The position numbers and the translations under genes are program-made. 55,811 bases of DNA from Prorocentrum cordatum (lineage: Eukaryota): positions 62,001 to 117,811 of the forward strand of contig CAUYUJ010000129.1 of NCBI GenBank assembly GCA_963575745.1, written 5' to 3'. This document shows positions 9,158 through 53,507 of this stretch, piece by piece (the first letter of the stretch is position 1; every line of letters starts with the position of its first letter). The notes below the pieces were generated by a model, which worked only from the letters and a program-made list of their open reading frames with translations, had not been told where the DNA came from and searched no databases.

Positions 9158-9190
9158 GAGATCGTGCACGTGCCGACGGTCGTGCAGCAG
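9158..9190 (+). CDS. Alveolin-like gene exon 1 in window (EIVHVPTVVQQ)
   Basis: ccgcag|GAG acceptor; CAG|gagcgc GA donor; 11 codons, all GC3. Confidence 0.8.

Positions 9191-53507: not shown

What the first reader, a model, noticed from the sequence alone, without database searches (positions are those of the whole stretch)
9158..53507. Hidden 12-micro-exon alveolin-like gene, invisible to the ORF track
Seen: only 783 coding nt spread over 44 kb. Exons are 33-120 nt and all phase 0, and the first seven exons (148 codons) have no A/T-ending codon. Known: alveolins/IMC proteins with EKIVEVP-type repeats build the alveolate cortical cytoskeleton, and dinoflagellates use GC/GA donors. Inferred: this is a transcribed alveolin whose all-symmetric exons could be skipped freely to tune filament length.
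Basis: partly seen in the sequence, partly recalled or inferred. Interest (0 to 1): 0.7.

Follow-up and report, generated by a model that had tools for sequence, protein, structure and literature searches.

The report
Split-up dinoflagellate alveolin gene fragment
The twelve tiny coding pieces are real and together form the middle part of an ordinary dinoflagellate cell-cortex skeleton (alveolin) gene, whose long introns and odd splice signals are normal for this kind of genome.

Summary
Observation confirmed to the base. All are phase 0, all follow AG|G acceptors, and the donors are GC x6, GA x4, GT x2.

Exons 1-7 (148 codons) have no A/T-ending codon. GC at codon positions 1/2/3 is 0.70/0.18/0.96, against 0.61 in the introns.

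The joined peptide aligns without a gap to residues 258-517 of a 1438-aa dinoflagellate alveolin model. Identity is 154/260. The score is 852, against 454 +/- 42 for 500 shuffled exon orders. Two transcript-derived marine proteins run across the same junctions. Exon 9 alone passes Pfam IMCp (26.8 bits, cut-off 21.1).

It is a fragment. There is no start codon at 9158 and no stop at 53507, so the gene continues outside the model and probably outside the window.

Intron sizes and donor usage match published Prorocentrum cordatum statistics.

The exon-skipping idea is unsupported. AG|G sites fall at codon boundaries in 22 of 25 cases, and skipping nearly any single exon breaks the 12-12-8 proline register.

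No read-level RNA evidence was obtained, and no near-identical public protein was found. Low interest.

The parts
9158..9190 (+). Exon 1 of the model (11 codons, EIVHVPTVVQQ). Acceptor cag|G, followed by a GA donor. It is not a first exon, because it has no ATG.
   Evidence: In register with P0003 residues 258-268 (5/11 identical). Weak on its own (domain E 4.3). Placed by the gapless alignment.
10474..10536 (+). Exon 2 (21 codons), GA donor. Exons 1 and 2 together make one 32-residue repeat unit.
   Evidence: phmmer domain E 0.018.
10980..11051 (+). Exon 3 (24 codons), GT donor.
   Evidence: 17/24 identical to P0003. phmmer 3.9e-07. Pfam IMCp 16.1 bits, below the cut-off.
22368..22448 (+). 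Exon 4 (27 codons), GC donor. It follows an 11,316-nt intron.
   Evidence: 18/27 identical. phmmer 1.1e-06. Pfam IMCp 17.4 bits, below the cut-off.
29275..29328 (+). Exon 5 (18 codons, non-repeat linker VQQTILDTTTQRQLQTIE), GC donor.
   Evidence: 9/18 identical to P0003. The same segment stands in transcript-derived P0019 and P0023. My first coordinates were 6 nt off and were corrected from the alignment.
32679..32735 (+). Exon 6 (19 codons, VVKPKIIQTIVQRKKPIIQ), GA donor.
   Evidence: 15/19 identical. phmmer 0.0012.
36879..36962 (+). Exon 7 (28 codons), GC donor.
   Evidence: 15/28 identical. phmmer 5e-05.
44148..44219 (+). Exon 8 (24 codons), GA donor.
   Evidence: 15/24 identical. phmmer 9.6e-06.
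47106..47225 (+). Exon 9 (40 codons, the longest), GC donor. Core alveolin repeats.
   Evidence: Pfam IMCp PF12314 26.8 bits against a cut-off of 21.1 for 47103-47228. phmmer 1.8e-14.
50138..50188 (+). Exon 10 (17 codons), GT donor.
   Evidence: phmmer 0.011-0.036.
51498..51533 (+). Exon 11 (12 codons), GC donor.
   Evidence: 9/12 identical. phmmer 0.074.
53448..53507 (+). Exon 12 (20 codons), followed by a GC donor. It is the last exon recognisable in the window and not a proven gene end.
   Evidence: phmmer 6.6e-08. Read-through would reach a stop after 19 more codons.
9191..53447 (+). Eleven introns lying between the exons within this span: 1283, 443, 11316, 6826, 3350, 4143, 7185, 2886, 2912, 1309 and 1914 nt. 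The mean is 3961 nt. They are rich in microsatellites and interspersed repeats.
   Evidence: No terminal inverted repeats above the window's null.

Best explanation
The stretch holds the middle part (261 codons) of one nuclear alveolin gene of a dinoflagellate. Earlier notes of this scan name the genome as Prorocentrum cordatum, and the composition and splice statistics fit that.

Twelve micro-exons are separated by introns of 0.4-11.3 kb. They are joined by ordinary dinoflagellate cis-splicing, which uses G|GC, G|GA and G|GT donors and AG|G acceptors.

The product is a valine/glutamine/isoleucine/glutamate/proline repeat domain. Its prolines are spaced 12-12-8, giving a 32-residue super-repeat. 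By homology it belongs to the intermediate-filament-like cortical network under the alveolar (amphiesmal) vesicles.

Shown: the exons, frames, splice dinucleotides, codon bias, IMCp match, collinearity with relatives, and the repeat register across junctions.

Inferred: that the exons are actually spliced in this organism, the cortical function, and that further exons lie upstream and downstream of the model.

The all-phase-0 layout is best explained as a by-product of introns sitting at AG|G sites, which in this coding sequence lie between codons.
For: Family and relatives:
- exon 9 alone passes Pfam IMCp (26.8 bits, cut-off 21.1). 3 of the 8 exon pieces submitted hit IMCp, two of them below the cut-off.
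- 15 proteins with E <= 0.01 among 17 candidates, 12 of them carrying PF12314. The named ones are dinoflagellate (Effrenium voratum; a Skav model of EukProt).

Joins:
- the joined exons align without a gap to P0003 residues 258-517. Identity is 154/260. The score is 852, against 454 +/- 42 (maximum 600) for 500 shuffled exon orders.
- transcript-catalogue proteins P0019 and P0023 run contiguously across the E4/E5, E5/E6, E6/E7, E7/E8 and E8/E9 joins. P0019 also runs across E9/E10. Each has one 14-16-residue gap inside E7 and none at a junction.
- proline spacing 12-12-8 continues unbroken across the E7-E12 junctions. Self-similarity peaks at lags 12 (0.265) and 32 (0.336).

Coding signal and splice sites:
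- GC1/GC2/GC3 are 0.70/0.18/0.96, against intron GC of 0.61.
- 12/12 AG|G acceptors and 12/12 G[C/A/T] donors.
- (passages of Dougan et al. 2023, PMC10666404, Table 2): P. cordatum donors are GT 24.7 %, GC 51.4 %, GA 23.8 %; AGG acceptors 79.7 %; mean intron 4709 nt; genome G+C 59.7 %. This gene has 2/6/4 of 12 donors, a mean intron of 3961 nt, and window GC of 0.609.

Strand specificity:
- no - strand hit below E 0.1.
Against: - There is no direct RNA evidence.
- No near-identical protein was found in the 5.8-billion-cluster collection with exon 9, or with an alignment of all 12 exons, as query. The best match is 59 % over 260 residues, and 72 % over 83. Either the public gene set lacks this model or the copy is little or not expressed.
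- Two exact exon stretches were absent from the metagenome contig collection.
- The model has neither a start nor a stop. No further alveolin-like exon was detectable in 1-9157 or 53508-55811.
- Three exons (E1, E5, E11) are not significant on their own.
- The organism name rests on earlier AI notes. The only named P. cordatum protein I met is a 51 %-identical paralogue of a neighbouring ORF.
Confidence: 0.85

Rival explanations
1. It is a silent or decaying extra copy, that is, a pseudogene or partial duplicate of an alveolin gene. The exon structure is still intact but it is not expressed.
For: - No near-identical protein in the large collection.
- No exact exon match in metagenome contigs.
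- The model lacks a start and a stop within the window.
- Passages of Dougan et al. 2023 describe extensive gene duplication in this genome type.
Against: - 261 codons without a stop or a frame shift.
- 12/12 acceptors and 12/12 donors are intact.
- GC3 of 0.96 stands far above the intron GC of 0.61, so there is no decay towards background.
- The alignment to the orthologue is gapless and the 12-12-8 register is unbroken.
Confidence: 0.1
2. One reading: the symmetric phase-0 micro-exons are alternatively skipped to vary the length of the alveolin repeat domain, and so the filament properties.
For: - All 11 introns are phase 0, so any skip keeps the frame.
- Passages of Dougan et al. 2023 report differential exon usage in 1820 genes of P. 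cordatum. I did not see whether this gene is among them, because the supplements were not examined.
Against: - 22 of 25 AG|G sites in the coding sequence lie in phase 0. Phase 0 is therefore what insertion or retention at AG|G sites gives without any selection for skipping.
- Skipping a single internal exon disturbs the 12-12-8 proline spacing for 9 of the 10 tested.
- The orthologue and the transcript-derived relatives contain every exon-equivalent segment. Their only length difference lies inside E7 and not at an exon border.
Confidence: 0.04
3. The exons belong to two or more neighbouring alveolin genes, for example E1-E7 and E8-E12, rather than to one transcript.
For: - A/T-ending codons occur only in E8, E9 and E12.
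- The E7-E8 intron is 7.2 kb.
Against: - One gapless 260-column alignment to a single orthologous model.
- P0019 and P0023 run straight across the E7/E8 join.
- There is no start codon context or stop at that border. E7 ends in a GC donor and E8 follows an AG|G acceptor.
Confidence: 0.02

Closest known systems
Alveolins / IMC1 family (Pfam IMCp, PF12314). Defined by Gould et al. 2008, Mol Biol Evol 25:1219, which I saw only as a citation in PMC9959387 and PMC4303705. The 12-residue periodicity is shown for Plasmodium alveolins in Al-Khattaf et al. 2015, PMC4303705 (abstract and passages read).
   Same: - V/P/E/K/I/Q-rich tandem repeats of the EKIVEVP kind.
- Exon 9 scores above the IMCp cut-off.
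- 12-residue periodicity.
- The organism is an alveolate, judged from its closest relatives.
   Different: - The repeats here form a strict 12-12-8 (32-residue) super-repeat with Q- and H-rich positions (VPVQKHRHVP, VPQIEYVD), as in other dinoflagellate alveolins.
- Only an internal fragment is seen.
- Localisation and filament formation are untested.
EukProt dinoflagellate gene model s1614_g14.t4 (P0003, 1438 aa, PF12314). The tool does not name the species.
   Same: - Residues 258-517 are collinear with the 12 joined exons without a gap, 59 % identical.
- The order of repeat and linker segments is the same, and so is the 32-residue register.
   Different: - It has about 257 further N-terminal residues and at least 120 further repeat residues, for which the window shows no exons.
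- Its long C-terminal half may be a fused model.
- Its intron positions could not be compared.
Typical Prorocentrum cordatum gene architecture (Dougan et al. 2023, Genome Biol 24:265, PMC10666404; passages including Table 2 read). Two other micro-exon genes of this genome were described in earlier notes of this scan (LUC7; an HPR-like gene).
   Same: - Long introns: mean 3961 nt here, 4709 nt genome-wide.
- Donors GC > GA ~ GT.
- AG|G acceptors.
- G+C about 60 %.
- Microsatellite- and repeat-rich introns.
   Different: - Exons are about a quarter of the published mean length (65 nt against 240 nt).
- None of the 11 introns shows the terminal inverted repeats of introner elements above the window's background.

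Membership tests
Alveolin (Pfam IMCp, PF12314) | Match to the IMCp profile at or above Pfam's gathering score | tested here: met
   window 47103-47228 (42 aa) scores 26.8 bits against a cut-off of 21.1. Two other exons score 16.1 and 17.4 bits, below the cut-off. 5 of the 8 pieces gave no IMCp hit.
Alveolin (Pfam IMCp, PF12314) | Core of tandem V/P/E/K/I-rich repeats with about 12-residue periodicity | tested here: met
   self-identity peaks at lags 12 (0.265), 20, 32 (0.336) and 44. Proline spacings run 12, 12, 8 repeatedly; composition is V 60, Q 36, I 31, E 27, P 23 and K 20 of 261.
Alveolin (Pfam IMCp, PF12314) | Orthology or close homology to alveolins of alveolates | tested here: met
   Across, 33 of 37 hits carry precomputed PF12314. 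The named hits are Effrenium voratum and EukProt dinoflagellate models. The best is 59 % identical over 260 gapless columns.
Alveolin (Pfam IMCp, PF12314) | Protein localises to the sub-alveolar cortex and forms a filament network | not testable with these tools
   Needs tagging or antibody localisation in the organism.
Expressed spliced dinoflagellate nuclear gene | Transcripts joining the exons at the predicted junctions | not tested
There is only indirect support.
Expressed spliced dinoflagellate nuclear gene | Dinoflagellate splice signals: G|G(T/C/A) donors and AG|G acceptors | tested here: met
   12/12 acceptors AG|G; donors GC 6, GA 4, GT 2. This matches Table 2 of PMC10666404.
Introner-element introns | Inverted repeats of 8-20 nt near both intron ends (criterion quoted in PMC10666404 methods) | tested here: not met
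   the longest exact terminal inverted repeat is 4-7 nt in all 11 introns. The null from 300 random pairs has a mean of 5.7 and a 95th percentile of 8. Only exact matches within the terminal 60 nt were scored.

The most novel reading that the evidence does not exclude
This alveolin copy is missing from the public gene set, and its phase-0 micro-exons are used differentially, for example under heat stress. Such genome-wide differential exon usage has been reported for P. cordatum. The result would be cortical skeleton proteins with different numbers of repeat units from one gene.
Probability: 0.05. Interest if true: 0.5.

Novelty: new member of a known kind. Interest (0 to 1): 0.2.

Why it matters
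The result matters mainly for annotation. It shows that a conserved cytoskeletal gene in a 4-Gb-class dinoflagellate genome can be recovered from raw DNA by codon bias together with collinearity to relatives. It also suggests that the public protein set may lack this gene.

It adds nothing new about splicing or about alveolin biology. The gene architecture is the published norm for this genome type. The one unusual idea, exon skipping as a length tuner, has a simpler explanation in the codon usage.

Tried and rejected
- Reads: the look-up of sequencing runs on 44100-53550 gave only small shares (<= 0.12) in 21 rows, 13 of them on record as RNA.
- Whole genome: none is held.
- Near-identical public protein or transcript: not found with exon 9 (15 hits among 17 candidates, best 82 % over a short stretch). 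Not found with an alignment of all 12 exons (23 hits among 1161 candidates). Only proteins of 71-2000 aa were searched.
- Exact-match scans of metagenome contigs with a 48-nt stretch of E9 and a 36-nt stretch of E4: 0 matches each.
- More exons: phmmer with six dinoflagellate alveolins and a home-made 32-residue unit HMM found nothing convincing in 1-9157 or 53508-55811.
- Introner hypothesis for the introns: rejected by the criterion tested. The 10-nt direct repeat at the ends of intron 1 was not followed further.
- My first E5 coordinates were wrong by 6 nt. The two-residue gap pair in the alignment showed this, and one search corrects it.
- Listing long ORFs was useless. At 61 % GC the window gives hundreds of spurious open frames.
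- Earlier findings: none near this place, none by sequence. The notes found under 'alveolin' concern other genomes.

Full report
**What is in the sequence.** The window is about 61 % G+C and is full of tri-, tetra- and dodecanucleotide arrays. A scan for runs of G/C-ending sense codons brought up a series of short + strand frames with alveolin-like wording (EIVHVP, EKTVEVPQIEYVD, VPVQKHRHVP).

The model has twelve exons:

| Exon | Coordinates | Codons | Donor after the exon |
|---|---|---|---|
| E1 | 9158-9190 | 11 | GA |
| E2 | 10474-10536 | 21 | GA |
| E3 | 10980-11051 | 24 | GT |
| E4 | 22368-22448 | 27 | GC |
| E5 | 29275-29328 | 18 | GC |
| E6 | 32679-32735 | 19 | GA |
| E7 | 36879-36962 | 28 | GC |
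| E8 | 44148-44219 | 24 | GA |
| E9 | 47106-47225 | 40 | GC |
| E10 | 50138-50188 | 17 | GT |
| E11 | 51498-51533 | 12 | GC |
| E12 | 53448-53507 | 20 | GC |

- The exons are 33-120 nt long and total 783 nt = 261 codons. All lengths are divisible by three.
- Every exon follows AG, begins with G and ends in AG.
- The dinucleotides after the exons are GC six times, GA four times and GT twice.
- E1-E7 (148 codons) have no A/T-ending codon. Only 10 of the 261 codons do.
- The eleven introns measure 443 to 11,316 nt, with a mean of 3961 nt.

**Is it more than chance?** Yes.
- G+C at codon positions 1/2/3 is 0.70/0.18/0.96, against 0.61 in the introns.
- I ran phmmer with six dinoflagellate alveolins against all six-frame open pieces of the window. 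Nine of the twelve exons come up individually at domain E < 0.05, all on the + strand and in order. The best - strand hit is 0.11 and lies in a satellite.
- E1, E5 and E11 are not significant alone. They are placed by the evidence in the next section.

**Are the exons parts of one coding sequence?** A search with exon 9 returned 15 proteins among 17 candidates. Twelve of them carry Pfam IMCp, and the named ones are from dinoflagellates. One of them is P0003, a 1438-aa EukProt model.

- P0003 aligns to the in-script join of the twelve exons over 260 columns without a single gap. 154 columns are identical. The score is 852. Five hundred random exon orders gave 454 +/- 42, with a maximum of 600.
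- My first coordinates for E5 were 6 nt off. The alignment exposed this as a paired two-residue gap, which shows how sensitive the test is to a wrong junction.
- Two proteins from a marine eukaryote transcript catalogue, P0019 and P0023, run contiguously across the E4/E5 to E8/E9 joins. P0019 continues across E9/E10. Each has one 14-16-residue gap, which lies inside E7 and not at a junction.
- The joined peptide has prolines spaced 12-12-8 again and again. This register runs on unbroken across the E7-E12 junctions. Self-similarity peaks at lags 12 and 32. P0003 shows the same 32-residue unit nineteen times.

These three lines are indirect but independent of each other. Together they make a wrong join very unlikely.

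**What it is.** Exon 9 by itself passes the Pfam IMCp (alveolin) gathering score, at 26.8 against 21.1 bits. Exons 3 and 4 score 16.1 and 17.4, and five of the eight pieces submitted gave no IMCp hit.

The amino-acid make-up (V 60, Q 36, I 31, E 27, P 23, K 20 of 261) and the 12-residue periodicity are those described for alveolins (PMC4303705, abstract and passages). The founding paper, Gould et al. 2008, I saw only as a citation.

By homology the product is a component of the filament network under the cortical alveoli. That function is inferred and was not tested.

**It is only a fragment.** Position 9158 follows a C-rich tract and CAG, so it is an acceptor, and there is no ATG. Position 53507 is followed by GCGGCT, a GC donor.
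- If E12 were not spliced, a stop would follow after 19 codons.
- The orthologue has about 257 residues before and at least 120 repeat residues after the aligned part.
- Neither phmmer nor a 32-residue unit HMM finds further exons in 1-9157 or 53508-55811.
- With introns of up to 11 kb, the missing exons probably lie outside the window.

**The organism and how ordinary the architecture is.** Earlier notes of this scan on other pieces of the same genome name it Prorocentrum cordatum. They say that micro-exons with GC/GA donors are normal there. These are AI notes and I did not verify them independently.

The published figures for that genome (Dougan et al. 2023, PMC10666404, passages with Tables 1-2) are:
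- G+C 59.7 %.
- Mean intron 4709 nt.
- Donors GT 24.7 %, GC 51.4 %, GA 23.8 %.
- AGG acceptors 79.7 %.

This gene has window G+C of 60.9 %, a mean intron of 3961 nt, donors 2/6/4 of 12, and 12/12 AG|G. The only departure is exon size, 65 nt against a mean of 240 nt. By the criterion tested, the introns are not introner elements. Their terminal inverted repeats are 4-7 nt, within the window's null.

**The exon-skipping idea.** All-phase-0 is what this sequence would give anyway. The splice consensus AG|G occurs 25 times in the joined coding sequence, 22 times between codons, never in phase 1 and three times in phase 2. This is because CAG/GAG/AAG codons are followed by GTN/GAG codons.
- The exon lengths do not follow the 32- or 12-residue register.
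- Deleting any one of the ten internal exons disturbs the proline spacing in nine cases. Only the 12-residue E11 leaves spacings of 8 and 12.
- The relatives keep every exon-equivalent segment.

Differential exon usage is reported genome-wide for P. cordatum, so skipping cannot be excluded. Nothing here points to it.

**What is missing.**
- Direct RNA evidence.
- A near-identical protein. None was found with exon 9 or with an alignment of all exons as query. Only proteins of 71-2000 aa were searched.
- Exact exon matches. Two exact exon stretches are absent from the metagenome contig collection.

This leaves about a 10 % chance that the copy is silent, and it suggests that the public gene set may lack it.

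**Verdict.** This is a real, partial and otherwise ordinary dinoflagellate alveolin gene. The family assignment and the splice-signal reading are supported. The functional speculation is not supported. Interest is low.

Noticed in passing
window 54437-55381 (+): An ATG-to-stop open frame of 315 codons with G/C-rich third positions lies downstream of the last alveolin exon. Part of it (about 54581-54862) resembles the C-terminal part of a 488-aa 'unnamed protein product [Prorocentrum cordatum]' with a RanBP2-type zinc finger (P0038). Identity is 51 % over 37 % of the query. There is no Pfam hit of its own. It may be a paralogous gene fragment, the next gene, or a piece nested in an alveolin intron.
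   Followed up: partly
window 3504-3665, 22547-22719, 26123-26290, 38500-38657, 50583-50739: Five same-orientation copies (78-91 % identical) of an interspersed repeat of about 165 nt. Four copies lie in alveolin introns (one in intron 4 starts about 100 nt after exon 4) and one lies upstream of the model. Two further two-copy repeats occur at 9964-10152 / 42261-42450 and at 11182-11368 / 43112-43299.
   Followed up: no
window 6626-7283 and 35696-36480: A 12-nt satellite (ATCGATCTCACA, about 55 and 65 copies) is present twice in opposite orientation, about 29 kb apart. One copy lies upstream of exon 1 and the other in intron 6.
   Followed up: no
window 9181-9196 and 10464-10479: The two ends of intron 1 share a 10-nt direct repeat (GCAGGAGCGC). 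The cut can therefore be placed anywhere within it without changing the product. This is longer than the 3-6 nt shared at the other ten introns. It could be a target-site-duplication trace or chance.
   Followed up: partly
window 29420-30312, 25012-25533, 18347-18570: Very long (GAT)n / (TGATGA)n arrays, up to 295 copies, lie inside introns 3-5. Many (GAG)n/(CTC)n arrays elsewhere give hundreds of spurious long open frames at this G+C content.
   Followed up: no
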